From a virus (taxonomy: Duplodnaviria > Caudoviricetes), in the IMG/VR virus record IMGVR_UViG_2593339203_000002, positions 32,745-96,744 of that record: a stretch of 64,000 nt of DNA; one strand, given 5' to 3'. The translations under genes were made by a program, and so were the position numbers. The stretch's first letter is position 1; each line of letters begins with the position of its first letter. Positions 1 through 13,562 of the stretch are shown in pieces. The notes beneath the pieces are model-generated. The model ran no database searches. It was given only the letters and a program-made list of their open reading frames with translations, and was not told the origin of the DNA.

Positions 1-441
1 ACGGCCCCGGCGCGCACCGCCGGGGAGGAGGCCGTCCTCCAGGACGTCCGGGAGTACATCCAGGACGCGCCCGGCGTCGGCGCCCGCACGGTCGCCGCGG
101 CCACCGCCGCGATCGGCTCGAAGGTCCAGGCCGGCCGGATCACCCGGGACCGGCTTACCGGCGCCCTCCCCGCCCTCACGGCCGCCGTGACCGCGAAGGC
201 CGTCCGCGACATGCGCGGCCAGGGCCTCACCCACGAGCAGATCCGTATGCGCCTGGAGCGCAAGCGCGCCGAGGCCATCCACGCCCGCGACCACGGCCGC
301 GTGACGGTGGCGGAGGCCATGCTCGCCGCCCACGCCGGGATCGTCGCGGACGAGGAGGCGCGCGCCGCCACCGCGGCCCACCAGCTCCCCGCCGCAGACC
401 GGCCCGCCCTCCCGGGCCCGGAATCCGACCGCCGGGCCTGA
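1..441 (+). CDS. Hypothetical protein, 5' truncated by window edge
   Basis: Frame is open from base 1 to TGA at 439-441 with GC3-rich codons; followed by a hairpin. Confidence 0.7.
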   Translation, partial: TAPARTAGEEAVLQDVREYIQDAPGVGARTVAAATAAIGSKVQAGRITRDRLTGALPALTAAVTAKAVRDMRGQGLTHEQIRMRLERKRAEAIHARDHGRVTVAEAMLAAHAGIVADEEARAATAAHQLPAADRPALPGPESDRRA

Positions 442-460
442 CTCGCCCCCGCCCGCTCCC

Positions 461-493
461 GGCCGGGCGCCGTCCCCCTCACGGCGCCCGGCC
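461..493 (+). terminator. GC-rich hairpin, likely terminator
   Basis: GGCCGGGCGCCGT-N7-ACGGCGCCCGGCC, perfect 13-bp stem just after a stop codon. Confidence 0.6.
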
Positions 494-499
494 TCACCC

Positions 500-1138
500 A
501 TGAGACGAGTTGAGATGAGCAGCAGCACGCCGCGCGCAACCCACCTCACCCCGGAGGAGCTGGAGGAGCTGCGCGCCCGCGCCCGCCGGGAGGCCGGCCC
601 CTTCGTCAACCCAACCATCCTGGGCACCGCCCGGGCGCACAACCCGGAGTGGGCGACGGAGATCCTGGGCCGCCCCTCCGGCGCCCGCCGGGCGACCTGG
701 CCGGAGCTCTACCTCCTCCACCTCGCGGCCGAGGCCGAGCCCACACCGCCCCCGCCGCCGAAGGAGACCGCAGCCCGGGCCGCCCGCGAGGTGCAGGAGG
801 AGGAACGCCGCCGCGCCGCCGCCGAGGAGCGGGCCCGGCAGGTGGAGGCATGGCGGGAGCTGGAGGCCGCCCTCCTCAAGGCCGGGGCCCGCGTGGACGT
901 CCGGCACAACTACACCTCCCACCGCCACCTGGAGACGTACACGCAGGGCGGGGACCACGTGGTCCTCCTGGACCCGCTCCACGTCGGCCGGCTCCACCGG
1001 GAGGCCGGGGTGAGCCTCTGTCACACCCCCAGCAACGCGCACAACGTGGCGATCCTGGAGCCGATCCCAGACGGCCGCCTCCCGTCATGCCAGGCATGCC
1101 TACGGATCGCGCGGAGCGTGGCCCGCCGCGTGACCTGA
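500..1138 (+). CDS. Hypothetical protein with coiled coil and C-terminal Cys/CxxC motif (start may be 515)
   Basis: 212-aa ORF, coding-like codon bias, SLCH...PSCQAC. Confidence 0.7.
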   Translation: MRRVEMSSSTPRATHLTPEELEELRARARREAGPFVNPTILGTARAHNPEWATEILGRPSGARRATWPELYLLHLAAEAEPTPPPPPKETAARAAREVQEEERRRAAAEERARQVEAWRELEAALLKAGARVDVRHNYTSHRHLETYTQGGDHVVLLDPLHVGRLHREAGVSLCHTPSNAHNVAILEPIPDGRLPSCQACLRIARSVARRVT

Positions 1139-1200
1139 CCTGCGGGGACACCGTGTCCCCGCCCATGTCCCCCGGCAGCGCCACGCCACACAGATAACGT

Positions 1201-1230
1201 GTTGACTTTGCAAAGTGAGTGTGTGAGTAT
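1201..1230 (+). promoter_or_regulatory. Promoter with palindromic operator over the -35 (copy 1)
   Basis: TTGACT-N17-GAGTAT; ACTTTGCAAAGT palindrome; near-identical copy at 3449. Confidence 0.75.
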
Positions 1231-1280
1231 CGAGGTGTCAGGGAGGCCGAACGGCCAACCGGCAGAAGGGACCACGCGCC

Positions 1281-1553
1281 ATGAGCACCGCCATCCGCAT
1301 CGAGACCACCGCGGACGCCGTCCGGGAGATCACCCGCCTCGCCATCCGCACCATCGCCGCCGGCGGCCACCGCGGCCACCACACGGCCCGGGTCACGGAG
1401 CTCATGGAGGCGGACGACGTCCAGGCGGCCATCCGGCGCTCCTTCAACCGCAACATCGCCCGCGGCCTCACCGTCCGGGACGCGTTCACCGTCACCGGCC
1501 AGGCCCTCATCGCCCACTACTGCAACTCCGCCCGCATCCCCACCGCGAGCTGA
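1281..1553 (+). CDS. Hypothetical protein
   Basis: 90 aa, purine-rich SD (AAGGG) upstream, directly downstream of promoter. Confidence 0.7.
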   Translation: MSTAIRIETTADAVREITRLAIRTIAAGGHRGHHTARVTELMEADDVQAAIRRSFNRNIARGLTVRDAFTVTGQALIAHYCNSARIPTAS

Positions 1554-1619
1554 ACACCCCCGCCGGGCGCCCCACCCCGGGCGCCCGCCCCCCACCCCCA
1601 CACCACGCCAGGAGGACCC

Positions 1620-2123
1620 GTGTTCGTTGAGACGTTCATCCACGCCGGCGGCGTCGCCGAGGGCCACGCCAGCGAGGCCCACGCCCTCCAGCTCATCCGC
1701 CGCGCCTTCCGCCGCGGCCACACCGTGGACGCCACCCCCGAGGGAGGCGCCGTCATCACCTGGACCGCCCGCCGCCTGGTCGACGGGGAGGCCGTGGAGC
1801 AGGGCCGTTCGATCTCCTTCACCCCGCAGACCCCGGCCGGGCCGCTCACCGACGCCGTACGCGGCCACCTCTTCACCCTCCACACCGGCGCCGCCGCCTT
1901 CCCCGGACGCCTGGACGGCCGCCCCGTCATCCGCGCCGGCCTCCAGACCATCCCGCCCGCGGCCACCTCCCACCTCTACGCCCACCGCCTGGTGACGGAG
2001 GACGGCGGCCGGGTCCGCCTCACCCTCGTGGCCCGCCTGGCCCTCCTCTCCATCCTCACCGCCGCCTCCCCGGAGGACCTGGCCGCCATCGCCGAGACGG
2101 ACGGCGTGGAGCTCCCCGCCTGA
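1620..2123 (+). CDS. Hypothetical protein
   Basis: 167 aa, AGGAGG SD before GTG. Confidence 0.75.
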   Translation: MFVETFIHAGGVAEGHASEAHALQLIRRAFRRGHTVDATPEGGAVITWTARRLVDGEAVEQGRSISFTPQTPAGPLTDAVRGHLFTLHTGAAAFPGRLDGRPVIRAGLQTIPPAATSHLYAHRLVTEDGGRVRLTLVARLALLSILTAASPEDLAAIAETDGVELPA

Positions 2124-2203
2124 CACCCCGGCCCGCGGGCCGTCCCCGCCAGGACGGCCCGCCCCGTACCCTCCACCACCTCCCGAGCAAAGGAGCTCAC
2201 CCT

Positions 2204-2917
2204 ATGCGCAACTACGCCACCGCCCGCAACATCGGAGGACGCTCCCGCCAGTGCGACGCCACCGCCGTGGTCGCCGCCCCCGGCAACGTCCGGGCGTACG
2301 TCCTCCTGGACGGCGTGGGGAGCTCCCCGGAGGTCGCTCACTGGACCCGCGGCGCCGCCCTCCGCGTCGCTGCCTCCTCCGCCCGCCACCAGCACGCGGA
2401 GGCCGGCCTCCGCGCCGCCTACGCCCACTACGCCGACCAGCCCGACCGCTGGAACCCGTGGCTGGACCTCCCGCACGCCGCCGCCGTCGTGGCCGTCACC
2501 GCCCCCGGAAAGCCGTTGACCGTCGCCTGGTGCGGCGACTCCCGCGCCTACCTCTGGAGCGGCGGCGGCTTCGTCAAGCTCACCAACGACCACAACCTTC
2601 GGCGCACCCGCCCGCCGTACGGCCGCGCAAACATCCTCACCTCCTGCCTCGGCTCCACGAAGACCGACGAAGAGGTGGAGGGCGAGCACGGCCACCCCAC
2701 GGTGGAATCCGTCACCCGCGCCCTCACCGGCCGGGAGCGCCTGTTCCTCATGAGCGACGGCGCATACGAGCCGATCGAGGAGTCCACCCTCCACCTGGAG
2801 GACTTCGCCCCCGGCGCCCTGGAGGACGTCCCCGGCGGCATCGTGGAGGCCGCCGTGGAGATGTGGGGAGAGGACGCCGACAACGCCACCGCCCTCGTCG
2901 CGGACCTCTGGTACTGA
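2204..2917 (+). CDS. PP2C/PPM-family Ser/Thr protein phosphatase
   Basis: Motifs LLDGVG, WCGDSRAY, LTNDH, MSDG, DNAT; AAGGAG SD. Confidence 0.85.
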   Translation: MRNYATARNIGGRSRQCDATAVVAAPGNVRAYVLLDGVGSSPEVAHWTRGAALRVAASSARHQHAEAGLRAAYAHYADQPDRWNPWLDLPHAAAVVAVTAPGKPLTVAWCGDSRAYLWSGGGFVKLTNDHNLRRTRPPYGRANILTSCLGSTKTDEEVEGEHGHPTVESVTRALTGRERLFLMSDGAYEPIEESTLHLEDFAPGALEDVPGGIVEAAVEMWGEDADNATALVADLWY

Positions 2918-2974
2918 CCACCCCCCCCGGGGCGGCGGAACGTCCGCCGCCCCCGCACCGAAGGAGCCCGCACG

Positions 2975-3256
2975 ATGGCCGCCAGTGACCTCCCCTCCTG
3001 CTGCTTCACCCGAGACCACCACCTCCATTGCCCCCGGCACGGCCAGCCCGCGCCGTACCCCGTCGGCCGGCGCGTCCGCACCCTCGTGGACGCCCCCGCC
3101 GCCTGGCCGGGCGCCTTCGCCGCCCCGGCCGGGACGGAGGGCACTGTGACCGGCCTCCCGGTCCCGCCCGGCACCTCCTACGGCGTCACCCTGGACGGCG
3201 ACCCCGACGCCTTCCCGGCGGCCTACGAGCCGGGGGAGATCACCGCCGCCGACTGA
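2975..3256 (+). CDS. Hypothetical protein (Cys/His N-terminus, SH3-like beta fold possible)
   Basis: 93 aa, AAGGAG SD. Confidence 0.65.
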   Translation: MAASDLPSCCFTRDHHLHCPRHGQPAPYPVGRRVRTLVDAPAAWPGAFAAPAGTEGTVTGLPVPPGTSYGVTLDGDPDAFPAAYEPGEITAAD

Positions 3257-3448
3257 CCTCCCGCCGCCACACGCCAGGGGCGGGGGACAACCTCCGGGCG
3301 CCAGCCCGGGGACGTGTCCCCCGCCCCTGACCTGTGGGGACACCAGCTCCTCCCCGTCGTCCCCGCCAGTGTCCCCGGCCCCGGGGGACACCGTCCCCCG
3401 TCTCGTCCCCCATGTCCCCGCGCGTCGCGCCACCACACCGGTAAGCAA

Positions 3449-3478
3449 GTTGACTTTGCAAAGTCAACGCGTCAGTAT
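3449..3478 (+). promoter_or_regulatory. Promoter with perfect 20-bp palindromic operator (copy 2)
   Basis: GTTGACTTTGCAAAGTCAAC at 3449-3468; TTGACT-N17-CAGTAT. Confidence 0.8.
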
Positions 3479-3524
3479 GGGAGTGCAGGGAGGGCACGGA
3501 GCCCGACCGGGAGAGGAGTGCACC

Positions 3525-4820
3525 ATGTGGGACCGCGTACCGGGGATCATCGCCGGACCGGGCGTCGTCAAGACCGGCGTTCACGTGGAGTACCTTCCGC
3601 AGCACCAGCCCGGCCCCCGCACCCGCCACGCCCGCGGCGGCGTGATCGTCTCCGTGGGCCCGAAGTGCGTCCGCTGGACCCCCTACGGCTCGGACCAGGC
3701 CGTCCGTACCCCCCTGGCCCACATGCGCGTGGACGCCGCCTCCCACATCAACAACCGCGTGGCCGTCCGCGCCGAGCTCGCCGCCCGGGCCGCCGGCAAC
3801 CCCCTGCCCTACCCCGAGTGGACGGAATGGTCCCTCGCCCGCCACCTGGAGCACGCCGCCGCCGAGGCCGCCAACCAGGCCGCAGACGCCGCCCGCATCA
3901 CGTGGGACGGCCAGGAGGACGTCACCGCCGGCCCCGGCGTCATCCAGCCCGGCGTCCACGTCGCGCTCCTCCCCGCGCACCGCCCCGGCCCGCGCGTCCG
4001 CCACGCCGACTCCGGCGTGATCATCTCCGTGGGAACGAAGTGCGTCCGGTGGCGCCCCTACGGCTCGGACCGGGACGTCCGTACGCCGCTGGACCACATG
4101 ACCATCAACGCGGTGGCCCACATCAACCAGGACTCCATGGTCCGCGCCTACTCTGCCGCCCTCGCGGCCGGCCGCTCCCTCCCGCGCTACCCGGAGTGGA
4201 CCCGCTGGACCCTGGCCGCCCACCTGGAGCACGCCGCCGCCCGGGCCGCCGCACGCCGCGCCCGCCTCATCCGCCTCGCCGTGAAGGTGGCCGCCCGCCA
4301 CACCCCCGCCGCGCGCCCGGTCGCCGTCCAGCTCCCGCGCCTGGCCCTCCCCGCCCCCGCCCCGGCCGTCGTCCCCGTCACCGTGCGCCCGGCCCGCGTC
4401 ATCGTCGTCCCGTGCGGCGCCGCGAAGCTGGACCGTCCGGCCTCCGCCGGGGAGCTCTACACCGGCAGCTTTCATAAGGCGTGCCGGAGGGCCGCGGACG
4501 CCCTCGCCCGGCCCGGGACCACCGTCCTGGTCCTCTCCGCGCTCCACGGCCTGGTCCCCCTGGACCGCGTCCTGGAGCCGTACGAGCTCCGCATGGGCCA
4601 GCCCGGCTCCGTCACCGGCGACGAGCTCCGCGCGCAGGCCCGGGAGCTCGGCGTGGACCGTACCGCGGAGGTCACCGTCCTCGCGGGCTCCGCGTACACC
4701 GCGGCGGCCCGCCACGTCTGGCCCCACGCCGCCGCCCCGCTGGAGGGCGCCGGCGGCATGGGCTACCAGCTCCAGCGGCTCAAGGCCCTCCGAGAGGGCC
4801 GCTACGCCCTCGCCGCCTGA
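3525..4820 (+). CDS. Protein with tandemly duplicated N-terminal domain and C-terminal DUF6884-like domain
   Basis: AGGAG SD before ATG 3525; two copies of AGPGV..GVHV...GVI.SVG.KCVRW.PYGSD...YPEWT.W.LA.HLEH; C-terminal PCGAAK..A.ELYTG...LSALHGLV..LEPYE. Confidence 0.75.
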   Translation: MWDRVPGIIAGPGVVKTGVHVEYLPQHQPGPRTRHARGGVIVSVGPKCVRWTPYGSDQAVRTPLAHMRVDAASHINNRVAVRAELAARAAGNPLPYPEWTEWSLARHLEHAAAEAANQAADAARITWDGQEDVTAGPGVIQPGVHVALLPAHRPGPRVRHADSGVIISVGTKCVRWRPYGSDRDVRTPLDHMTINAVAHINQDSMVRAYSAALAAGRSLPRYPEWTRWTLAAHLEHAAARAAARRARLIRLAVKVAARHTPAARPVAVQLPRLALPAPAPAVVPVTVRPARVIVVPCGAAKLDRPASAGELYTGSFHKACRRAADALARPGTTVLVLSALHGLVPLDRVLEPYELRMGQPGSVTGDELRAQARELGVDRTAEVTVLAGSAYTAAARHVWPHAAAPLEGAGGMGYQLQRLKALREGRYALAA

Positions 4821-5785: not shown

Positions 5786-5913
5786 CCGCCGACCGTTCTG
5801 CAGGCCCGCCCGGCACCCCGCCCGGGCGGGCCCCTTTCACATGCCGGAACTGATCACCACGGGTGCCTATCCTCCTGCGGCCCTCACCCCGGACCGACCA
5901 GGAAGAGTCCCCG

Positions 5914-6756
5914 ATGACCACCAGCACCGAGCCCACCGGCGCCGTCTTCAAGCGGCTGGAGACACGCCCCCTCGGGGACCTCACCCCCTACCCGGGCAAC
6001 GCCCGCCGTGGTGACGTCGGGATGATCCTGGAGTCCCTGACCGCCAGTGGGCAGTTCCGGCCCCTGGTCGTGCGGGAGCAGGCGGACGGCGCCCTGGTCG
6101 TCCTCGCCGGTAACCACACCCTCCAGGCCATCGAGCGCCACGGCTACGGCCCCTGCGGCCGGGTCACCCGCCACGACGGCCAGGAGCGGCCGTGCGCCCT
6201 CTGCCACGGCCAGGAATGGGCACCCACCGCGCAGGTCGCCGTCTACACGTGCACCGACGACACCGCCCGCCGCATCGTCCTCGCCGACAATAGGACCAGC
6301 GACGCCGGCGCCTACGACGACCAGGCCCTCGCGGACCTCCTGGCCGACATGGACGGCGACCTCGCCGGTACCGGCTACACGGACGATGACCTGGAAGACC
6401 TCTTGCAGTACCTGGAGGAGGACGAGCCCGAGCCGGAGCCGGACGAGGACGACGACCAGGAGCAGGAGGAGCCCGCCCCGGCCGGTGAGCCGGCCACCTC
6501 GAGCGCCCCCGCCACCGGCGGGGACACCCCGCCGCCCGGACACGCCTCCCTGGTCCTCACCTACCGCCAGGCCGACAAGGACGAGACCTCCCGCCTCATC
6601 GCCGCGGCCGGGGAAGTCATCCAGGGCGCCGACTCCGCGGAGATCATCCTCCGCGCCCTGCGCACCCTCGTTGCCGTGATCGACTCCCGGCACGCCCCGG
6701 ACGGCGTGGTCACTGTTGCCGCCCTCCTCAAGGCGGCCGACCTGGACCAGACGTGA
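5914..6756 (+). CDS. ParB/Srx N-terminal-domain protein (phage DNA-modification-associated type), copy 1
   Basis: L.PYPGNARRGD...SL...GQ.RPLVV...VLAGNHT...LADNR motifs. Confidence 0.8.
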   Translation: MTTSTEPTGAVFKRLETRPLGDLTPYPGNARRGDVGMILESLTASGQFRPLVVREQADGALVVLAGNHTLQAIERHGYGPCGRVTRHDGQERPCALCHGQEWAPTAQVAVYTCTDDTARRIVLADNRTSDAGAYDDQALADLLADMDGDLAGTGYTDDDLEDLLQYLEEDEPEPEPDEDDDQEQEEPAPAGEPATSSAPATGGDTPPPGHASLVLTYRQADKDETSRLIAAAGEVIQGADSAEIILRALRTLVAVIDSRHAPDGVVTVAALLKAADLDQT

Positions 6757-6798: not shown

Positions 6799-7077
6799 TC
6801 ACCGGACCGGGGCCGCGCTCCAGTCGTCCACCAGGAGGTCCCGCATCGTCGGCACCCAGGGGCCGAACGTCTTCGCGTTGCCGTTCCACGCCATCAGGTA
6901 CGGGTCGAACACGCACCGCGTGCCCTGCTCCACGCCCGTGGACGCCGCCGTGTTCGCATTGATCTCGATACCGTCCGGGTAGCCCGGCTGCAGCACCACG
7001 TAGGAGTCCTCGCTCCACCCCTCGCGGCGGATGCGGTGACCGTTCTTGACGGCGCTCAGCGCCTCACTGAAGTCCAT
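6799..7077 (-). CDS. DUF2829 / Tad2-like (Thoeris anti-defence 2) protein
   Basis: MDFSEAL..VK.G.RI.R.GW ... PY.....PWVPT..DLL.DDW signature. Confidence 0.8.
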   Translation of the reverse strand: MDFSEALSAVKNGHRIRREGWSEDSYVVLQPGYPDGIEINANTAASTGVEQGTRCVFDPYLMAWNGNAKTFGPWVPTMRDLLVDDWSAAPVR

Positions 7078-7243: not shown

Positions 7244-7840
7244 ATGCCGCCCGCCGTACACGTGCGCACCGACACCATTCCCCTGGCCGACCTCCAACAC
7301 TTCCCCGGCAACGCCCGCCGCGGGGACGTGGAGCTCATCCTCTCCAGCCTCAAACGGAACGGGCAGTACCGCGGCCTGGTGGCCCGTCACGTCCAGCCGG
7401 ACGGCCCGCTGGTCGTCCTGGCCGGCAACCACACGATGCAAGCCCTCCAGCTTCACGGCCCCGGCGCGTGCGACTACCGGACCACCCACCAGGGCGAGGA
7501 ACGGCCGTGCGGCGTCTGCCACGGGGAGGACTGGTCCCCGTCCGCCCGGTGTGAGGTGATCATCTGCGACGACGACACCGCCCGCCGCGTGAACCTCATC
7601 GACAACCGGGCGTCGGACGTGGGGGAGTACGACCGGGACGCCCTCGCGGAGCTCCTGTCCTACCTGGAGGAGGACGGGTTCGAGGGCACCGGCTACACGG
7701 AGGCCGAGGTCCGGCAACTCGCCCACGCCGTCCCCCCGCTGGAGACCAGCGAGGAGGAGTTCCCGGCCTACGACGAGGACGTCCCCACGGCCTACACGTG
7801 CCCCCGCTGCTCCTACAGCTGGTCGGGGAAGCCGGCATGA
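7244..7840 (+). CDS. ParB/Srx N-terminal-domain protein, copy 2, with C-terminal CPRC zinc ribbon
   Basis: AGGAG SD; paralogous motifs PGNARRGD, VLAGNHT, DNR; ATGA overlap with the methyltransferase. Confidence 0.8.
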   Translation: MPPAVHVRTDTIPLADLQHFPGNARRGDVELILSSLKRNGQYRGLVARHVQPDGPLVVLAGNHTMQALQLHGPGACDYRTTHQGEERPCGVCHGEDWSPSARCEVIICDDDTARRVNLIDNRASDVGEYDRDALAELLSYLEEDGFEGTGYTEAEVRQLAHAVPPLETSEEEFPAYDEDVPTAYTCPRCSYSWSGKPA

Positions 7841-9093
7841 GCCCGCGCCGCGCCCCACGGACCCGCCCCTCCAACCGGGCCGTCGTCAAACCGCCCTACC
7901 GCGTCCCGACCATGGCCGAGATCGCCGCCCTGCCCTGGAACGGCTTCACCGCCGCCTCCTCGTTCTCCGGGTGCGGCGGCTCCTCCCTCGGCTATCGCAT
8001 GGCCGGCTTCCGGATGCGGTGGGCGTCGGAGTTCATCCCGGCCGCGCAGGAGACCTACCGGGCCAACGCCCGCCCGTACACCGTCCTGGACACCCGGGAC
8101 ATCCGCGAGGTGACCGCGGAGGACGTCCTCGCGGCGTGCGGCGTGGCCGTGGGGGAGCTGGACCTCTGGGACGGCAGCCCGCCGTGCGCGTCGTTCTCGA
8201 CCATGGGCAAGCGCGAAAAGGGCTGGGGCCTGGTCAAGCCGTACTCGGACACCGTCCAGCGCACCGACGACCTCTTCTTCGAGTACGCCCGTCTCCTCAA
8301 GGCACTCCAACCCCGCACGTTCGTCGCGGAGAACGTGAGCGGCCTGGTCAAAGGCACCGCGAAGGGCTATTTCCTGGAGATCCTGGCCGCGCTCAAGGCC
8401 TGCGGCTACCTGGTGGAGGCCCGCCTCCTGGACGCCTCCCGCCTCGGCGTCCCCCAGTCCCGGCAGCGGCTCATCTTCGTGGGCGTCCGGGAGGACCTGG
8501 ACATGCCGCCGGCGTTCCCCCGCCCGCTCCCGTACCAGTACACGGTCCGCGACGCCCTCCCGGAGCTGCCGCGCCTCGTCCACGACACGTCCGGCGCCCG
8601 CGGCCAGGGCGACGTCACCGACCGCCCGTCCCCCGCGATCACCGTCGGCACGGACGCGATCAACAGCTACCACTTCCGCGTCCTCGACCCCGCCGAGGGC
8701 CGGGAGGTCACGCACGACCCGGAGACCGGGAAGAACATCCATATCGGCCGGTACGCCATCGGGGAGGCCTGGCGCGACACCCCGCCCGGCGGCTCCTCGG
8801 AACGGTTCTTCAGCCTGAAGCGGATGGACCCGGACCGGCCGTCCCAGACGATCACCGCCGAGGGCGGGAACGTCACGAAGGCCTCCGTGACCCACTACGC
8901 CGAGGCCCGCAAACTGACGCTCGGCGAGCTCCGGAAGATCGGCGGGTTCCCGGACGACTTCCAGCTCACCGGCACCTACGAACAGCGATGGGAGCGCATC
9001 GGCCGCGCCGTCCCCCCGGTGATGATGAGCCACATCGCGGCCGCCGTCCGGGACCAGATCCTCATTCCCCTCCGCGAGCGGGGGGTGATCTGA
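7837..9093 (+). CDS. DNA cytosine-C5 methyltransferase family protein; predicted carboxymethyltransferase
   Basis: Motif I FSGCGG, IV SPPC, VI ENV, VIII QSRQR; motif X reads GRAVPP instead of GNAVPP. Confidence 0.9.
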   Translation: MSPRRAPRTRPSNRAVVKPPYRVPTMAEIAALPWNGFTAASSFSGCGGSSLGYRMAGFRMRWASEFIPAAQETYRANARPYTVLDTRDIREVTAEDVLAACGVAVGELDLWDGSPPCASFSTMGKREKGWGLVKPYSDTVQRTDDLFFEYARLLKALQPRTFVAENVSGLVKGTAKGYFLEILAALKACGYLVEARLLDASRLGVPQSRQRLIFVGVREDLDMPPAFPRPLPYQYTVRDALPELPRLVHDTSGARGQGDVTDRPSPAITVGTDAINSYHFRVLDPAEGREVTHDPETGKNIHIGRYAIGEAWRDTPPGGSSERFFSLKRMDPDRPSQTITAEGGNVTKASVTHYAEARKLTLGELRKIGGFPDDFQLTGTYEQRWERIGRAVPPVMMSHIAAAVRDQILIPLRERGVI

Positions 9094-9095
9094 CC

Positions 9096-10505
9096 GTGTG
9101 CGGCATCATCGCGGCCGCCGGCCACCTCGACCTGGCCCCGGCCGTGGAGGCCCTGGCACACCGGGGCCCGGACGCCGCCGCCGTCGTCCAGGAGTACGGC
9201 GTCACCCTCGGCCACACCCGCCTGGCCATCCAGGACCCGGGCTCCCGCTCGGACCAGCCGTACAGGGACGGCCCCGTGACGCTGGTCTATAACGGGGAAC
9301 TGTTCAACGCCCCCCGCGTGTGCGCCCTCGTGGAGTCCATGGACCCGCGCCGCAACTGGACCACCACGGGGGACACGGAGGTCGTCGCGGCCGCCCTGGC
9401 CACGCTCGGCCCGGAGGCGACGCTCCCGGAGCTGGACGGCATGTACGGCCTCGTCTGGACCGATGCCCGCCGCCCCGGCGTCCTCATGGCAGCCCGGGAC
9501 CGCCACGGGGAGGTCCCCCTCCACGTCCACCGTGGCGCCCCCGCCCTCATCGCCTCCGAGCTCAAGGCCTTCCGCGCGCTCGGCCGGCGCTGCGGGAAGG
9601 CCGTGGTCGACGTCCCCCCGGGGGAGTGGTGGGAGCTCTACGGCGGCGCCCTGACCCGCCACGTCTTCCACCGGCTCACCGCCACACCCGCCCCCGGCCT
9701 CACCCGAGAGACCGCCGCCGCACAGCTACGCCATGCCCTGGCCCGCGCGGTGGACCGCCGGGTGATCGCGGACGTGCCGGTGTGCGCGCTCCTCTCCGGC
9801 GGCATCGACTCCGCCGCCATCGTCGCCGAGCTGGTCCGGCACCACCCCGGCCTCACCACGTACACCGCCGTACTGGACCCGAAGTCGGCGGACCTCCGCC
9901 ACGCCCGGGAGACCGCCGAAGCGCTCGGCGTGACGCTGGTGGAGGTCCCCGTGGCCCCGCCCACGGCGGACGACCTCACCCGCGCCCTGGAGGTGATCGA
10001 GCAGCCCTCCAAAGCTCAGGTGGAGATCGCCTGGCCGTGCCTGGCCCTCGCGTCCGCCATGCGCGCGGACGGCTACCGCGTCACCTACACCGGCGAAGGC
10101 AGTGACGAGCTATGGGCGTCCTACGGCTTCGCCTACCGCGGCATCCGGGAGGCCGGCTGGTACCCCTACCGCCGGGACCTCATCGCCGCGCAGGCCGTAC
10201 GGAACTTCCCCAGGGTGAACAAGGCGTTCATGTCGGCCGGGGTGGAGGGCCGCCTCCCCTTCCTGGACCCCGACCTGGTCACCCTGGCGCTCTCCATGCC
10301 CGAGGCCACCGTCCGGGACGCCGACACCCCCACCGGCCGTAAAGCCGTCCTCTCCGCCGCCTACCGCGACCGCCTCCCCGCCTCCGTCCTCCGCCGGGCG
10401 AAGGTCGCGTTCCAGGACGGCCTAGGCCTGAAACCGATCATCACCAGCGCCCTCCCCAACCCCGTGAGGTACTACCGTGCAGAACACTTCCGCCTCTACG
10501 GCTGA
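9096..10505 (+). CDS. Asparagine synthase (glutamine-hydrolysing)-like amidotransferase
   Basis: N-terminal MCGI nucleophile, HRGPD, GHTRLAI, NGELFN, DTEV, SGGIDS PP-loop, TGEGSDEL, RLPFLD. Confidence 0.9.
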   Translation: MCGIIAAAGHLDLAPAVEALAHRGPDAAAVVQEYGVTLGHTRLAIQDPGSRSDQPYRDGPVTLVYNGELFNAPRVCALVESMDPRRNWTTTGDTEVVAAALATLGPEATLPELDGMYGLVWTDARRPGVLMAARDRHGEVPLHVHRGAPALIASELKAFRALGRRCGKAVVDVPPGEWWELYGGALTRHVFHRLTATPAPGLTRETAAAQLRHALARAVDRRVIADVPVCALLSGGIDSAAIVAELVRHHPGLTTYTAVLDPKSADLRHARETAEALGVTLVEVPVAPPTADDLTRALEVIEQPSKAQVEIAWPCLALASAMRADGYRVTYTGEGSDELWASYGFAYRGIREAGWYPYRRDLIAAQAVRNFPRVNKAFMSAGVEGRLPFLDPDLVTLALSMPEATVRDADTPTGRKAVLSAAYRDRLPASVLRRAKVAFQDGLGLKPIITSALPNPVRYYRAEHFRLYG

Positions 10506-11409
10506 CACCGCCGCCGGCCCGGGGCCCGCTCCGGAGGACGCCGCCCGCTGCCGGTGCGGCCACCCGAAGGGCGACCACAGCGACCGCCGCGACCACCCGT
10601 CATCCCCGACCGTCCCCCGCCGCCCCTGGTGCCACGCCTGTGAGGGCACGTGCGACTACGCCCCGCGCGGCCAGGAGCCGGAGGACATCGCGGAGTCCTT
10701 CGCCACCGGCGCGTGGGAGTTCACCCCCGCCGTCGTGGACGTCTTCCCCGAGCACGTCCGCGCCTCCGTCCCGTACTACGACGCCATTCAAGACCTGGTC
10801 GCGGAGGCCGCGGACTGGCTCCTCCCGGATGACGGCCTGGTCGCCGACCTCGGCGCCTCCACCGGGACCACCGTCCACCGCATCGCCCAACGGCACCCCA
10901 CACGCCAACTCCGCGCCTCCCTCTACGACCAGGAGACCGCCATGCTGGACCGGGCCGCGGAAACCCTGGCCGGCGTCTCCAACCTCCACGTGGACTACGT
11001 CCCGGCCGACATCCGCCGCTCCCCCCTCGGCCACCAGGACGCGAACCTCACCCTGGCCCTCTTCACCCTCCAGTTCCTCCCCCTGGCCGACCGCGTCCAC
11101 GTCCTACGCCAGGCTCGCCACGCCGCCGCCTCCACCGGCGCCCTCATCGTCGCCGAGAAGGTCCGCCCGCCGGACGCCCGCTGGGCGGAGATCGCCGCGG
11201 ACGCCTCCCACGACTGGAAGGCCGCCCACGGGATCACGGACTCCGCCATCCGCGCGAAGGCCCGCGCTCTCCGCGGTGTCCTCCAGCCTTACCCGGAGGT
11301 CGCCCTCGTCCAGGCCGTCCATGACGCCGGCTGGTGCTGCCCGGAGGTCCTATTCCGCTGGCACTCCTGGCTCGTCCTCGGCGCGTTCGCCACCCCTACC
11401 GGCCTCTAA
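10477..11409 (+). CDS. CmoA-like class I SAM enzyme (putative carboxy-SAM synthase) with N-terminal Cys/His extension
   Basis: WEF...V.DVFP..VR.SVPYY, DLGASTG, FTLQFL, LIVAEK, HDWK...G....I..K resemble CmoA; start uncertain. Confidence 0.8.
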   Translation: MQNTSASTADTAAGPGPAPEDAARCRCGHPKGDHSDRRDHPSSPTVPRRPWCHACEGTCDYAPRGQEPEDIAESFATGAWEFTPAVVDVFPEHVRASVPYYDAIQDLVAEAADWLLPDDGLVADLGASTGTTVHRIAQRHPTRQLRASLYDQETAMLDRAAETLAGVSNLHVDYVPADIRRSPLGHQDANLTLALFTLQFLPLADRVHVLRQARHAAASTGALIVAEKVRPPDARWAEIAADASHDWKAAHGITDSAIRAKARALRGVLQPYPEVALVQAVHDAGWCCPEVLFRWHSWLVLGAFATPTGL

Positions 11410-11496: not shown

Positions 11497-11922
11497 ATGG
11501 GCGCATCGAAGGCACAGCGCGCGGCTGCGGCGAAGAAAAGAGCGCAGGCCACGGCCCTACGCGTCGCCGGGGTGGACTGGGCGACGATCGCGGAACGCGT
11601 CGGCTACGCCTCGGCCGGCGCCGCCTGCACCGCCGTGGGCGAGGCCTTGAAAGCCAACCTCCGTGAGCAGGACCAGAACGTGGACGAGCTCCGCGCGCTC
11701 GGCCTGGCGAAGGTCAACCGGCTCCAGGCCGCGTTCTGGCCCGCCGCCATCCAGGACAAGGACCCGAAGGCCGCGAAGGTCGTCCTGGAGTGCATCAAGC
11801 AGGAGGCCCGGTTCCAGGGCACGGAGGCACCGACCCGCGTCAACATGGAGGCGCAGCGCCTCGCGGACGAGATCCTGGCCGTCTTCGACGAGGGGGCCGG
11901 CGGCCCGGGTGAGGGGACGTGA
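11497..11922 (+). CDS. Terminase small subunit (HTH)
   Basis: HTH LRVAGVDWATIAERVGY; GTGA overlap with large subunit. Confidence 0.75.
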   Translation: MGASKAQRAAAAKKRAQATALRVAGVDWATIAERVGYASAGAACTAVGEALKANLREQDQNVDELRALGLAKVNRLQAAFWPAAIQDKDPKAAKVVLECIKQEARFQGTEAPTRVNMEAQRLADEILAVFDEGAGGPGEGT

Positions 11923-13562
11923 GGACCCGAGAGGAGCTGGAGCGGGAGGTCCGGGAACTCGCCCGTACGGGAGACATCACCGCCCTGCGCGAGGTCCGGG
12001 ACGCCGTCCGCAGCGCCCGCTCCCGGAAGAACTCCCGCCGGGTCCTGCGCTACATGTACGACCCGGTGGGGTGGGCGCGGGACTGCATCGCGTGGGAGGA
12101 GGGGGAGGGCCTGACCGCCTATCAGGCGGACTCCCTCGGCGCGATCCCCCGGCAACGGCGCGTGGCCGTACGTGGCCCTCACGGCCTCGGCAAGACCGGC
12201 ATGGCCGCTATCTGCGTGCTCTGGTTCGCCACCACCCGGGAGGCCGCCGGGATCGACTGGAAGGTCATCATGACCGCCTCCGCGTGGAGGCACCTCTCCG
12301 TGTACCTGGTGCCTGAGCTCCGGAAGTGGGCGAAGCGCATCCGGTGGGACGCCGTGGGGCGGGAGCCGTTCTCCGAGCGGACGGAGCTCCTGGCACTCAA
12401 CCTCAAGTTGGAGAACGGCGCCGCCACCCCGGTCGCCTCGAACAAGCCGGAGCTCATCGAGGGTGCGCACGCGGACAGCCTCCTCTACCTGATCGACGAG
12501 GCCAAGATCGTCCCGGATGGGACGTGGGACGCGATTGAGGGAGCGTTCTCCGGCGGCCGTACGGACGGCCCGCCCGGGGAACTCCCCGAGGCCTTCGCCT
12601 TCGCCATCTCCACGCCCGGGCCGCCGGCGGGCCGGTTCTACGACATCCACCGCCGCGCCCCGGGCCTGGAGGACTGGTGGGTCCGTCACGTCCGGCTGGA
12701 AGAGGCCATCGCCGCCGGCCGGATCTCCCGCCAGTGGGCGGAGCAGCGCGCCCGCCAGTGGGGCCGGGACTCCGCCGTCTACGCCAACCGCGTGGAGGGC
12801 GAGTTCCAGGCGTCGGACGAGGACTCCGTCATCCCCCTGGCATGGGTGGAGGCCGCCGTGGAGCGCTGGCACGAGTGGGACCAGGCCGGCCGCCCCGACC
12901 TCGACGGCCGGGAGTACGTCGGCGTGGACGTCGCCCGGGCCGGCGGGGACTCCACCATCCTCGCCCGCCGGTGGGGCGTCGCCGTCGTGGAACTGGAGAG
13001 CCACGACCGGGAAGACACCATGCGCACCACGGCGCGCGTCCAGGCGGCCACTGGAGAGGACGGGGAGGTGATCCCGGTCGTGGACTCCATCGGGGTCGGC
13101 GGCGGCGTCGTGGACCGCCTCCGGGAGCTCTCCGTCCCCGTCCTGGCGTACACCGGCGCGGCCAAGACCCGGGCGCGCACCCGGGACGGGGAGTGGGGGT
13201 TCCGCAACGTCCGCTCCGCGGCGTACTGGCGGATGCGGGAGCTCCTGGACCCCGCATACGAGCCGGAGGTGATGCTCCCCCCGGACGATGAGCTCCTGGC
13301 CGACCTCACCGCCCCCACGTGGGACACCACCACCGGCGTCCCGCCGAAGATCTACGTGGAGCCGAAGGAGGACCTGGTGAAGCGGATGGGCCGCTCCCCC
13401 GACAAGGGGGACGCCGTGGTCATGTCCTACTGGGCGGAGATGCTGGCCGCCACCGCCGTCCACTCCCCGGCACGCCGCGGGCAGTCGGCCGGCACCGGCG
13501 GCCGGACGGCGGCCTCCCGGTACGGGCGCACCATCGGAGGCGGAGGCACCCGCACCCGGTGA
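11919..13562 (+). CDS. terL: Terminase large subunit
   Basis: Walker A GPHGLGKT, Walker B LIDEA, ISTP, nuclease GVDVARAGGD and SPDKGDA. Confidence 0.92.
   Translation: MRTREELEREVRELARTGDITALREVRDAVRSARSRKNSRRVLRYMYDPVGWARDCIAWEEGEGLTAYQADSLGAIPRQRRVAVRGPHGLGKTGMAAICVLWFATTREAAGIDWKVIMTASAWRHLSVYLVPELRKWAKRIRWDAVGREPFSERTELLALNLKLENGAATPVASNKPELIEGAHADSLLYLIDEAKIVPDGTWDAIEGAFSGGRTDGPPGELPEAFAFAISTPGPPAGRFYDIHRRAPGLEDWWVRHVRLEEAIAAGRISRQWAEQRARQWGRDSAVYANRVEGEFQASDEDSVIPLAWVEAAVERWHEWDQAGRPDLDGREYVGVDVARAGGDSTILARRWGVAVVELESHDREDTMRTTARVQAATGEDGEVIPVVDSIGVGGGVVDRLRELSVPVLAYTGAAKTRARTRDGEWGFRNVRSAAYWRMRELLDPAYEPEVMLPPDDELLADLTAPTWDTTTGVPPKIYVEPKEDLVKRMGRSPDKGDAVVMSYWAEMLAATAVHSPARRGQSAGTGGRTAASRYGRTIGGGGTRTR

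What the first reader, a model, noticed from the sequence alone, without database searches (positions are those of the whole stretch)
7837..11409. Predicted carboxy-SAM DNA hypermodification pathway ending in an amidated cytosine
Seen: three abutting or overlapping genes just before the terminases: a C5 cytosine methyltransferase, a complete asparagine-synthase-like glutamine amidotransferase and a CmoA-like protein. The methyltransferase has Arg (CGC, 9004-9006) where motif X normally has Asn (GRAVPP versus GNAVPP). Established: CmoA makes carboxy-SAM; a basic residue at this Asn position (M.MpeI N374K) lets C5 methyltransferases use carboxy-SAM to give 5-carboxymethylcytosine; AsnB-fold enzymes convert a carboxylate to an amide with ATP and Gln. 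I recall CmoA plus carboxymethyltransferase pairs being reported in a cyanophage (from memory, verify). Inference: this phage writes 5-carboxymethyl-dC and amidates it to 5-carbamoylmethyl-dC, a DNA analogue of tRNA ncm5U chemistry, probably against restriction. I do not know of the AsnB-coupled version being characterised. Caveat: by eye E. coli CmoA R199 aligns to Ala here, with an Arg one residue later.
Basis: partly seen in the sequence, partly recalled or inferred. Interest (0 to 1): 0.93.

Follow-up and report, generated by a model that had tools for sequence, protein, structure and literature searches.

The report
Prophage cytosine carboxymethylation-amidation gene cassette
A Streptomyces-type prophage carries the DNA-camouflage gene set published in 2025 (carboxy-SAM synthase, cytosine carboxymethyltransferase, amide-forming enzyme), here in the glutamine-using version whose predicted product, an amidated cytosine, has not yet been measured.

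Summary
Window 7837-11409 holds three tightly packed + strand genes just before the terminase. They are a C5 cytosine methyltransferase homologue with Arg (CGC 9004-9006) in motif X, a full-length glutamine-type asparagine-synthase homologue, and a CmoA-like protein.

Yang et al. (Nat Commun 2025, PMC12783734) proved CmoA/CmoX/CmoY chemistry in cyanophage S-B43: 5-carboxymethylcytosine, then its glycine amide. They also predicted an ammonia-using ligase cluster represented by A0A7T0Q3R0. That protein is Streptomyces phage TurkishDelight gp124, which is 77% identical to the enzyme here. It could not be made soluble, so the product is unmeasured.

- The transferase's best solved relative is SpCmoX (8YF3). 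The catalytic Cys, the carboxylate-binding Arg and four cofactor contacts are conserved.
- In genome scans, 8 of 8 close relatives of the amidotransferase sit between a CmoX and a CmoA. None of 71 distant relatives does.
- E. coli CmoA R199 aligns to Ala here, but to Glu in the experimentally active SpCmoA, so this caveat does not disqualify the protein.

Verdict: a new member of a known kind, with moderate-to-low interest. This scan already noted the system in at least 19 other genomes.

The parts
5863..6756 (+). ParB-like paralogue 1. The start is either GTG 5863 or ATG 5914.
   Evidence: phrog_723 ParB-like, E 2.4e-47. Pfam ParB_N is not hit. 68% identical to TurkishDelight gp121.
7244..7840 (+). 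ParB-like paralogue 2. Its stop overlaps the CmoX start (ATGA).
   Evidence: ATG 7244 lies after an AGGAG. phrog_723, E 6.9e-47. A ParB2-like gene lies upstream of CmoX in 9 of the 12 IMG/VR loci that have a CmoX hit and in 8 of 8 clade loci from GTDB. An invariant C-terminal CPxC is seen in alignment A4.
7837..9093 (+). CmoX-type DNA cytosine C5-carboxymethyltransferase homologue (P0001, 418 aa).
   Evidence: PF00145, 6.4e-53. The best PDB hit is 8YF3 SpCmoX at 210 bits; the next is HaeIII at 84 bits. 37% identical to SpCmoX over the full length.
8185..8187 (+). Codon of the catalytic Cys117 in the SPPC motif.
   Evidence: Aligns to SpCmoX C98. SPPC is invariant in 19 of 19 aligned homologues (A5).
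9004..9006 (+). CGC codon of Arg390 in motif X.
   Evidence: Aligns to SpCmoX R350, which replaces HhaI N304 and contacts the Cx-SAM carboxylate. Invariant in A5.
9096..10505 (+). Glutamine-type AsnB-like amidotransferase (P0002, 469 aa), the candidate 5cxmC amidating ligase.
   Evidence: GATase_6/7 plus Asn_synthase. E. coli AsnB 1CT9 at 1.7e-34. 77% identical to TurkishDelight gp124, which is UniRef100_A0A7T0Q3R0. Cys2, R42, N66, E68, D93, SGGIDS, E334, D337, E338 and K436 are conserved.
10477..11409 (+). CmoA-like candidate carboxy-SAM synthase (P0003, 310 aa).
   Evidence: TIGR00740 at 3.8e-28, below its cut-off. E. coli CmoA 4GEK at 1.2e-18. The AlphaFold model (pLDDT 85) has the CmoA structures as its top 6 Foldseek hits. 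24% identical to SpCmoA, E 4e-19.
10549..10653 (+). Cys/His-rich insert in the N-terminal part of the CmoA-like protein, with Cys at residues 25, 27, 52, 55 and 59.
   Evidence: Absent from 17 of 17 homologues in the fetched loci. Present with the same Cys pattern in a 310-aa Streptomyces scabiei homologue, P0016. Model confidence there is only 61-69.
11497..13562 (+). Context only: the small-terminase-position gene (11497-11922) and the large terminase (11919-13562).
   Evidence: phrog_645 and phrog_2. The same order is found in TurkishDelight genes 1-2.

Best explanation
This is the glutamine-dependent variant of the phage CmoA-CmoX-CmoY DNA hypermodification system. It sits in a complete, integrated, TurkishDelight-like actinophage.

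- Step 1 (inferred from homology): the CmoA-like protein converts SAM and prephenate into carboxy-SAM. The phage probably has to bring this enzyme because the cmo5U pathway is mainly a Gram-negative trait.
- Step 2 (inferred; shown for the 37%-identical SpCmoX): the C5 transferase flips out a cytosine in double-stranded DNA. Cys117 attacks C6, and the enzyme transfers the carboxymethyl group of carboxy-SAM to C5. Arg390 holds the cofactor's carboxylate. The product is 5-carboxymethylcytosine. The target sequence is unknown.
- Step 3 (inferred; predicted in print, never measured): the AsnB-like enzyme adenylates that carboxylate at its PP-loop site and amidates it. The ammonia is released from glutamine at the N-terminal Cys and passed between the two domains. 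The product is 5-carbamoylmethylcytosine (deoxynucleoside [M+H]+ about 285.1).
- The two ParB-like proteins upstream are conserved companions of unknown role.
- The likely benefit is protection of phage DNA from host nucleases. Carboxymethylation was shown to block HhaI in vitro.
For: - Transferase. The best solved relative by a wide margin is SpCmoX 8YF3 (E 3.8e-61, 210 bits, against 84 bits for HaeIII). Residues F43, E65, F66, D88, C117 and R390 align to SpCmoX F25, E47, F48, D69, C98 and R350, which the paper names as cofactor contacts, nucleophile and carboxylate binder. SPPC and G-R-x-VPP are present in all 12 IMG/VR relatives with a CmoX hit, in TurkishDelight and in 8 of 8 GTDB clade loci.
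- Published chemistry. SpCmoA, SpCmoX and SpCmoY activities and 5gcxmC in virion DNA were shown in PMC12783734.
- Ligase. It is 77% identical to A0A7T0Q3R0, the named representative of the cluster that Yang et al. predict to use glutamine-derived ammonia. The glutaminase network that PMC6748925 lists for human ASNS (Cys-1, Arg-48, Asn-74, Gly-75, Glu-76, Asp-96) is present. It is conserved in every clade locus where the position is covered: 21-22 of 24, with the rest cut off.
- Gene order. A CmoA-like gene directly follows the AsnB-like gene in 15 of 16 IMG/VR loci. CmoX is present in 12 of the 13 loci that have upstream sequence.
- Association control. 8 of 8 against 0 of 71 in GTDB genomes.
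- Order of steps. Arg390 is kept in every CmoX that sits next to a glutamine-type ligase. This argues that the carboxylate form of the cofactor is what gets transferred, and that amidation follows on DNA.
- CmoA-like protein. The only strong family matches are CmoA models, the top six fold hits are CmoA structures, and phrog_4752 matches at 4e-52.
- Uniqueness. The provirus record has only one C5 methyltransferase and one CmoA-like gene.
Against: - No experiment exists for this locus or for any glutamine-type ligase of this cluster. The paper's attempt to make the enzyme failed.
- The AsnB-like protein is only weakly similar to the characterised DNA ligase SpCmoY (30% over 110 residues, E 2e-6). 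It is much closer to true AsnB. It keeps the acidic cluster E334/D337/E338, which binds the aspartate alpha-amino group in ASNS. Free aspartate as substrate is therefore not excluded by residues.
- The CmoA-like protein scores below both curated CmoA cut-offs (98.8 against 193.3 bits; 71.2 against 285 bits). It also has Ala where E. coli CmoA has R199, the only side chain that contacts the Cx-SAM carboxylate (PMC4482062).
- In the fold search, the CysG/BelI methyltransferases follow CmoA with nearly equal TM-scores.
- One IMG/VR relative (L023) has the AsnB-like gene in three frames and no CmoX or CmoA nearby.
- The target motif and the expression timing are unknown.
Confidence: 0.7

Rival explanations
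1. The AsnB-like protein is an ordinary glutamine-dependent asparagine synthetase carried as an auxiliary metabolic gene. The DNA modification stops at 5-carboxymethylcytosine.
For: It aligns with E. coli AsnB over residues 19-448 (E 1.7e-34). It keeps the PP-loop, E348, D351, E352, R387 and K449 equivalents, including the acidic cluster that holds the aspartate amino group in ASNS.
Against: It scores below both curated asparagine synthase cut-offs (220.2 against 267.1 bits; 210.4 against 499 bits). It lacks about 70 C-terminal residues of AsnB. It has Asn where AsnB and ASNS have D384/D400, in 24 of 24 clade loci. Its clade is found only between CmoX and CmoA (8 of 8 against 0 of 71), with coupled or overlapping reading frames. 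In S-B43, virion DNA carried the amide and no free 5cxmC.
Confidence: 0.08
2. The AsnB-like enzyme activates 5cxmC but gives a different product: an amide with another amine, or an intramolecular lactam formed with the cytosine N4 amino group. The second would resemble AsnB-family beta-lactam synthetases and lasso-peptide cyclases.
For: The AsnB superfamily includes cyclases and ligases; NCBIfam lists weak matches to lasso-peptide and macrolactam cyclases. Yang et al. note ligase clusters with unidentified amine substrates. The activated carbonyl would lie next to N4 (chemical reasoning only).
Against: The complete glutaminase catalytic set is conserved across the clade. That is expected only if glutamine-derived ammonia is the nucleophile. 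From my own recollection, not checked in any call, known AsnB-family cyclases have lost or degraded this site.
Confidence: 0.08
3. The cassette does not make carboxymethyl-DNA at all. The transferase is a plain 5-methylcytosine methylase, and the CmoA-like protein is an unrelated small-molecule or RNA methyltransferase.
For: The CmoA-like protein is below the family cut-offs and lacks R199 by alignment. The CysG/BelI methyltransferases are near-equal fold matches.
Against: SpCmoX accepted only Cx-SAM, and its R350N mutant accepted neither SAM nor Cx-SAM. The same Arg and all named cofactor contacts are conserved here. The experimentally active SpCmoA also lacks Arg at the R199 column; it has Glu there. 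The actinophage clade has invariant Arg259, Lys261 and Arg266 on the same helix. The three genes stay together across Actinomycetota and in a Gemmataceae MAG.
Confidence: 0.06
4. Amidation happens on the cofactor, turning carboxy-SAM into carbamoylmethyl-SAM. The transferase then moves a ready-made carbamoylmethyl group to DNA.
For: The AsnB-like enzyme is closer to small-molecule AsnB than to the DNA-acting SpCmoY.
Against: The carboxylate-binding Arg of CmoX is invariant next to glutamine-type ligases: 19 of 19 in A5. SpCmoY was shown to act on 5cxmC already in DNA.
Confidence: 0.05

Closest known systems
CmoA-CmoX-CmoY system of Synechococcus phage S-B43 (Yang et al., Nat Commun 2025, PMC12783734; CmoX structure 8YF3)
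   Same: It has the same three enzyme families in one cassette. CmoX is 37% identical, with the SPPC Cys, the R350-equivalent Arg and the four named Cx-SAM contacts conserved. A CmoA homologue is present (24% identity, E 4e-19). ParB-type neighbours are noted in the paper and present here.
   Different: SpCmoY is a 271-aa synthetase-only protein that uses glycine. Here the ligase is 469 aa with a full glutamine-hydrolysing domain and shares only 30% identity over 110 residues with SpCmoY. The gene order differs: A-Y-X in S-B43 against X-ligase-A here. The region between the catalytic motifs of CmoX does not align convincingly, so the GC target motif cannot be transferred. The host is a high-GC actinobacterium and the phage is integrated.
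Streptomyces phage TurkishDelight gp121-gp125 (MW291017). gp124 is UniProt A0A7T0Q3R0, the representative of Yang et al.'s glutamine-amidase ligase cluster.
   Same: It has the same five-gene module in the same order, directly before the terminase genes: ParB, ParB, transferase (87% identity), amidotransferase (77%) and CmoA-like (82%).
   Different: TurkishDelight lacks the antisense Tad2-like gene between the ParB paralogues and the Cys/His insert in the CmoA-like protein. It is an isolated phage, not a provirus. Its ligase has also not been characterised.
E. coli CmoA (4GEK), carboxy-SAM synthase of the tRNA cmo5U pathway
   Same: Full-length alignment (E 1.2e-18). It is the top fold match, with target-normalised TM-score 0.87-0.88. 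K198 is conserved.
   Different: R199, the sole side-chain contact of the product carboxylate (PMC4482062), is Ala here and Glu in SpCmoA. Arg is invariant at E. coli positions 196 and 203, and at least 90% conserved at 200. There is no CmoB partner. This copy has a Cys/His N-terminal insert.
E. coli asparagine synthetase B (1CT9) and human ASNS (6GQ3)
   Same: Two-domain architecture, N-terminal Cys nucleophile, glutamine-binding network, PP-loop, and the E348, D351, E352, R387 and K449 equivalents.
   Different: Below the curated equivalog cut-offs. About 70 C-terminal residues are missing. D384 is replaced by Asn throughout the clade. The genomic context is strictly CmoX/CmoA.
Engineered M.MpeI N374K (and M.MedI) carboxymethyltransferases
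   Same: A basic residue at the motif X Asn position lets a C5 methyltransferase use carboxy-SAM. Yang et al. say so in their Discussion. The M.MedI abstract was seen only in a search listing.
   Different: Those are laboratory or bacterial CG-specific enzymes with Lys. This one is a natural phage enzyme with Arg and its own cofactor supply.
Phage Mu Mom (N6-carbamoylmethyladenine).
   Same: The same substituent, -CH2-CONH2, on a DNA base as an anti-restriction mark.
   Different: A different base and position (adenine N6), and an unrelated enzyme and chemistry.

Membership tests
CmoX (DNA cytosine C5-carboxymethyltransferase, Yang et al. 2025) | C5 cytosine methyltransferase fold | tested here: met
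   PF00145, E 6.4e-53, covering positions 4-321 of 324. TIGR00675, 2.9e-48, above its cut-off.
CmoX (DNA cytosine C5-carboxymethyltransferase, Yang et al. 2025) | SPPC motif with the catalytic Cys (SpCmoX S95-C98) | tested here: met
   S114-P115-P116-C117 aligns to SpCmoX S95-C98. Invariant in 19 of 19 homologues.
CmoX (DNA cytosine C5-carboxymethyltransferase, Yang et al. 2025) | Arg at the SpCmoX R350 / HhaI N304 position, which binds the Cx-SAM carboxylate | tested here: met
   R390 (CGC 9004-9006) aligns to R350 in phmmer and BLASTP alignments.
CmoX (DNA cytosine C5-carboxymethyltransferase, Yang et al. 2025) | Transfers carboxymethyl from Cx-SAM and not methyl from SAM | not testable with these tools
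   Needs an enzyme assay or nucleoside LC-MS.
CmoA (carboxy-SAM synthase) | Score above the curated equivalog cut-off | tested here: not met
   TIGR00740: 98.8 bits against a cut-off of 193.3. NF011995: 71.2 against 285. They are nevertheless the two best matches and cover the whole model.
CmoA (carboxy-SAM synthase) | Arg199 (E. coli) contacting the product carboxylate | tested here: not met
   Ala262 stands at that column in three independent alignments. The active SpCmoA has Glu there, so the feature does not define the phage enzymes. R259, K261 and R266 are invariant in 38 clade sequences.
CmoA (carboxy-SAM synthase) | CmoA fold as the nearest structure | tested here: met
   The model (pLDDT 85.2) has 4GEK, 4IWN and 1IM8 at ranks 1-6, with target TM-scores of 0.86-0.89. 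CysG/BelI follow closely.
CmoA (carboxy-SAM synthase) | Makes Cx-SAM from SAM and prephenate | not testable with these tools
   Needs an assay or complementation of an E. coli cmoA deletion.
Glutamine-amidase ligase cluster of Yang et al. (representative A0A7T0Q3R0) | Sequence similarity to the representative above the network threshold (about 30% identity) | tested here: met
   77% identity over 100% of the length to TurkishDelight gp124, which carries the accession UniRef100_A0A7T0Q3R0. The network itself, a figure with supplements, was not seen.
Glutamine-amidase ligase cluster of Yang et al. (representative A0A7T0Q3R0) | Glutamine-hydrolysing domain with an intact catalytic set | tested here: met
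   Cys2, R42, N66, G67, E68 and D93 match the ASNS network listed in PMC6748925.
Glutamine-amidase ligase cluster of Yang et al. (representative A0A7T0Q3R0) | Sits beside CmoX and CmoA | tested here: met
   Between them in this window. 8 of 8 clade loci against 0 of 71 outgroup loci.
CmoY in the strict sense (SpCmoY, 5cxmC-glycine ligase) | Close similarity to SpCmoY and a glycine-carboxylate binding site | tested here: not met
   Only 30% identity over 110 residues, E 2e-6. SpCmoY lacks the glutaminase domain and has Ile at the E348 position. The glycine-binding residues appear only in a supplementary figure, which I could not see.
Asparagine synthetase B (glutamine-hydrolysing) | Curated equivalog score | tested here: not met
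   TIGR01536: 220.2 against 267.1 bits. NF006949: 210.4 against 499 bits.
Asparagine synthetase B (glutamine-hydrolysing) | Complete aspartate amino-group pocket (human E364, D367 and D400, equal to E. coli E348, D351 and D384) | tested here: inconclusive
   E334 and D337 are kept. D384 is replaced by N370, invariant in 24 of 24 clade loci.

The most novel reading that the evidence does not exclude
The cassette writes 5-carbamoylmethylcytosine, a DNA base that has been predicted but never measured, into an actinophage genome after replication.

In this lineage the chemistry runs on a CmoA subfamily that holds the carboxy-SAM carboxylate without the canonical Arg199, using Arg on the next helical turns instead. 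That could explain faster product release, since SpCmoA turns over about ten times faster than E. coli CmoA.

The enzymes may also be tied to DNA by the two Cys-bearing ParB-like proteins that always precede the transferase.

An inducible Streptomyces lysogen, together with the isolated phage TurkishDelight, would give a native source for the base. This would bypass the insoluble recombinant enzyme.
Probability: 0.55. Interest if true: 0.5.

Novelty: new member of a known kind. Interest (0 to 1): 0.33.

Why it matters
The chemistry and its enzymes were published in December 2025. The glutamine-type ligase was predicted there, from a protein 77% identical to this one, so the locus adds no new kind of system.

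Its value is practical.
- It is a complete provirus with all five conserved genes. With phage TurkishDelight, it offers a native route to test the one step the authors could not test: whether the final base is the primary amide 5-carbamoylmethylcytosine.
- The clean 8-of-8 against 0-of-71 association marks this amidotransferase clade as a DNA-modification enzyme rather than an asparagine synthetase.
- The comparison shows that Arg199 is not a defining residue of phage carboxy-SAM synthases. This matters for annotating them.

Tried and rejected
- Asparagine-synthetase reading: considered and judged unlikely from family cut-offs, the clade-wide D384-to-Asn change and strict synteny.
- R199 as a disqualifier for CmoA: rejected, because the experimentally active SpCmoA has Glu at that column.
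- A cos site between the CmoA-like gene and the terminase, with 'first DNA to enter' reasoning: dropped. The TurkishDelight record starts exactly at its gene 1, so its ends may be conventional rather than physical.
- Transfer of the S-B43 GC target motif: not justified, because the variable region aligns poorly. As arithmetic only, a GC specificity would touch 31% of the window's cytosines.
- Pfam ParB_N on the two upstream genes: no hit even at E 10. PHROGs identifies them.
- A residue-level structural check of which Arg reaches the cofactor in the CmoA model was not possible, because the tools return no coordinates.
- Literature: searches for carbamoylmethylcytosine, 5ncmC, CmoX and CmoY and for carboxy-SAM with 5-carboxymethylcytosine found no paper that measures the amide base in DNA. 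The library misses most subscription journals.
- Two searches for AsnB active-site residues: one search found nothing; led to PMC6748925.
- The original CmoA paper could not be read.
- Supplements of PMC12783734 (sequence comparison table, ligase active-site figure) were not seen. They may bear on cluster membership and on glycine-binding residues.
- My remembered AsnB residue numbers T322/R325 did not map onto the alignment as expected and are not used.

Full report
**What is in the sequence.**
The window has about 73% G+C. It is the right-hand 64 kb of a 96,744-base provirus record that CheckV rates as complete. A tyrosine integrase lies at the record's far end. Between 5863 and 13562 all relevant genes lie on the + strand, in this order:
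- A ParB-like gene at 5863 or 5914 to 6756.
- A second ParB-like gene at 7244-7840, with an AGGAG before its ATG. Both match phrog_723 at about 1e-47.
- A C5 cytosine methyltransferase homologue at 7837-9093 (PF00145, 6.4e-53).
- A two-domain asparagine-synthase homologue at 9096-10505 (GATase_6/7 plus Asn_synthase).
- A CmoA-like protein at 10477-11409.
- The terminase genes.

The junctions are an ATGA overlap, a 2-base gap and a 29-base overlap. Codon 390 of the methyltransferase is CGC at 9004-9006, giving IGRAVPP. A Tad2-like gene (PF11195, 1.6e-18) lies antisense between the two ParB paralogues. So is its caveat that E. coli CmoA R199 aligns to Ala with an Arg one residue later.

**What is already known.**
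Two literature searches found Yang et al., Nat Commun 2025 (PMC12783734). I read its outline, Results and Discussion. In Synechococcus phage S-B43 the authors showed the following:
- SpCmoA makes carboxy-SAM.
- SpCmoX, a C5 methyltransferase homologue, makes 5-carboxymethylcytosine. It accepts only Cx-SAM.
- In the 8YF3 structure, R350 replaces HhaI N304 and contacts the carboxymethyl group.
- SpCmoY, an asparagine-synthetase homologue, ligates glycine to the carboxylate.
- Virion DNA contains the glycine amide.

Their survey found 5,615 CmoX candidates (SPPC plus R350), 4,257 CmoA, 2,251 ligases and 1,660 ParBc proteins. The second-largest ligase cluster, represented by A0A7T0Q3R0, has a glutamine-hydrolysing domain. 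The authors take this to mean that the substrate is glutamine-derived ammonia. They could not obtain soluble enzyme from that cluster.

A further search for the amide base and for the names CmoX and CmoY found no paper measuring it.

**How this locus relates to the published system.**
- Transferase. The best solved relative is SpCmoX (8YF3) at E 3.8e-61 and 210 bits; HaeIII follows at 84 bits. A full-length BLASTP alignment gives 37% identity. It places F43, E65, F66, D88, C117 and R390 opposite SpCmoX F25, E47, F48, D69, C98 and R350.
- Amidotransferase. It is 77% identical over its whole length to gp124 of Streptomyces phage TurkishDelight. An exact-sequence look-up shows that protein to be UniRef100_A0A7T0Q3R0. 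The enzyme here is thus a close orthologue of the paper's named but uncharacterised representative.
- Module. TurkishDelight carries the same five genes in the same order, directly before its terminase: ParB, ParB, transferase (87%), amidotransferase (77%) and CmoA-like (82%).

**Is the association real?**
- IMG/VR. A scan with the amidotransferase gave 16 loci.
  - A CmoA-like gene follows directly in 15 of them.
  - A CmoX homologue is present in 12: directly upstream in 11 and downstream in L021.
  - Three loci are cut at the contig end.
  - One (L023) has the amidotransferase in three frames and neither partner.
  - All 12, and TurkishDelight, have SPPC and G-R-(A/S/C)-VPP.
- GTDB representative genomes. 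A scan gave 79 loci.
  - The 8 with at least 51% identity come from two Streptomyces, four Nonomuraea, one Streptosporangium and one Gemmataceae MAG. All have CmoX upstream and a CmoA-like gene downstream.
  - None of the other 71 has either within 4 kb. Their best segments are at most 43% identical, and their full-length matches at most 35%.
- L010 and L027 seem to be one contig held in both collections.
- A protein search with the CmoA-like core found 346 relatives at E 1e-5 or better. The 120 listed are all at least 59% identical. Many lie on multi-megabase chromosomes or large contigs of Streptomyces, Nonomuraea, Verrucosispora or Streptosporangium. The module is therefore common in actinobacterial prophages.

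**The CmoA-like protein.**
Points against membership:
- It scores below both curated CmoA models.
- It lacks R199. PMC4482062 describes that residue as the only one contacting the carboxyl group of Cx-SAM in CmoA.

Points in favour:
- The CmoA models are its best family matches and are covered end to end.
- An AlphaFold model (pLDDT 85.2) has the three CmoA entries as its six best Foldseek hits. The CysG/BelI methyltransferases come close behind.
- SpCmoA, which turns over at 2.33 per second against 0.23 for E. coli CmoA, has Glu at the R199 column in both MAFFT and BLASTP alignments.
- The actinophage clade has invariant Arg259, Lys261 and Arg266, and nearly invariant Arg263, on that helix (38 sequences). 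SpCmoA shares the Lys and the Arg at E. coli position 203.

I infer that phage CmoAs bind the carboxylate differently. The weaker grip may relate to their faster turnover, since E. coli CmoA holds its product very tightly. This is inference only.

**The amidotransferase.**
- It has the N-terminal Cys and the residues equivalent to the ASNS glutaminase network listed in PMC6748925.
- It also has the PP-loop, the SGEGSDE-type motif with the E348, D351 and E352 equivalents, R387 and K449.
- These are conserved wherever covered in 24 clade loci.
- SpCmoY and the PaBG homologue lack the glutaminase domain. They have Ile or His at the E348 position. That fits a different nucleophile.
- Differences from true AsnB:
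  - scores below the curated cut-offs;
  - about 70 C-terminal residues missing;
  - Asn instead of D384 (human D400) in 24 of 24 clade loci.
- The retained acidic residues bind the aspartate amino group in ASNS models. They could equally contact the N4 amino group of a flipped-out 5-carboxymethylcytosine. That is speculation.
- Direct similarity to SpCmoY is weak (E 2e-6 over 110 residues). The DNA substrate is therefore inferred from context, not from close homology.

**Mechanism and rivals.**
The best reading (0.7) is Cx-SAM synthesis, then C5 carboxymethylation of DNA cytosine, then ATP- and glutamine-dependent amidation to 5-carbamoylmethylcytosine. The carboxylate-binding Arg is invariant in transferases next to glutamine-type ligases. 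This argues that amidation follows transfer.

The rivals are a plain asparagine synthetase (0.08), another amine or a lactam product (0.08), no carboxymethylation at all (0.06), and amidation of the cofactor before transfer (0.05).

**Verdict.**
The finding is real and the interpretation sound, but the system and this variant's predicted product are in print. The same scan has already recorded the system in at least 19 genomes, including a glutamine-type cassette in a cyanophage. It is a new member of a known kind. What remains open is the measurement of the amide base, the target motif, the role of the ParB-like proteins and the carboxylate-binding residue of phage CmoAs.

Noticed in passing
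window 6799-7077 (- strand): A 92-aa Tad2-like (anti-Thoeris) gene lies antisense between the two ParB-like paralogues (PF11195, E 1.6e-18). tblastn found no counterpart in TurkishDelight or in any of the related loci.
   Followed up: partly
window 10549-10653 (residues 25-59 of the CmoA-like protein): A roughly 50-residue Cys/His-rich insert (CxCxH ... CxxC...C) is absent from 17 of 17 homologues in the fetched loci. It is present, with the same cysteines, in a 310-aa Streptomyces scabiei homologue (P0016). It may be a zinc knuckle. Model confidence there is only 61-69.
   Followed up: partly
window 7244-7840 and 5863-6756; alignment A4: The ParB-like proteins end in an invariant CPxC...WSGKP motif. 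Part of the family, including both copies here, also has an internal C...ERPCxxC insert. Pfam's ParB_N model does not detect them, although PHROGs does. They accompany CmoX in most related loci, and their role is unknown.
   Followed up: partly
L002 (Gordonia phage Evaa, OP434461) 1-3952: Evaa has a CmoA-like gene (49% identical) next to its terminase but no C5 CmoX homologue. Instead, gp2 joins a ParB-N domain to an unassigned Rossmann-like domain with a VDFGAGH motif (phrog_5475, function unknown; no Pfam or PDB match for that part). It could be a carboxy-SAM user of another class. Yang et al. report finding no N6-adenine or N4-cytosine candidates.
   Followed up: partly
L033 (Gemmataceae MAG contig, GTDB): The full ParB-CmoX-glutamine-type ligase-CmoA cassette also occurs on a planctomycete MAG contig (ligase 51% identical). 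The variant is therefore not confined to Actinomycetota.
   Followed up: no
L023 (IMG/VR contig): A relative of the amidotransferase is split over three reading frames and has no CmoX or CmoA within 5 kb. It is either a decayed remnant or a sequencing artefact.
   Followed up: no
window 11497-11922: The gene in the small-terminase position matches phrog_645, which is labelled 'Rnase E'. TurkishDelight annotates its counterpart as a helix-turn-helix DNA-binding protein. The family label looks unreliable.
   Followed up: no
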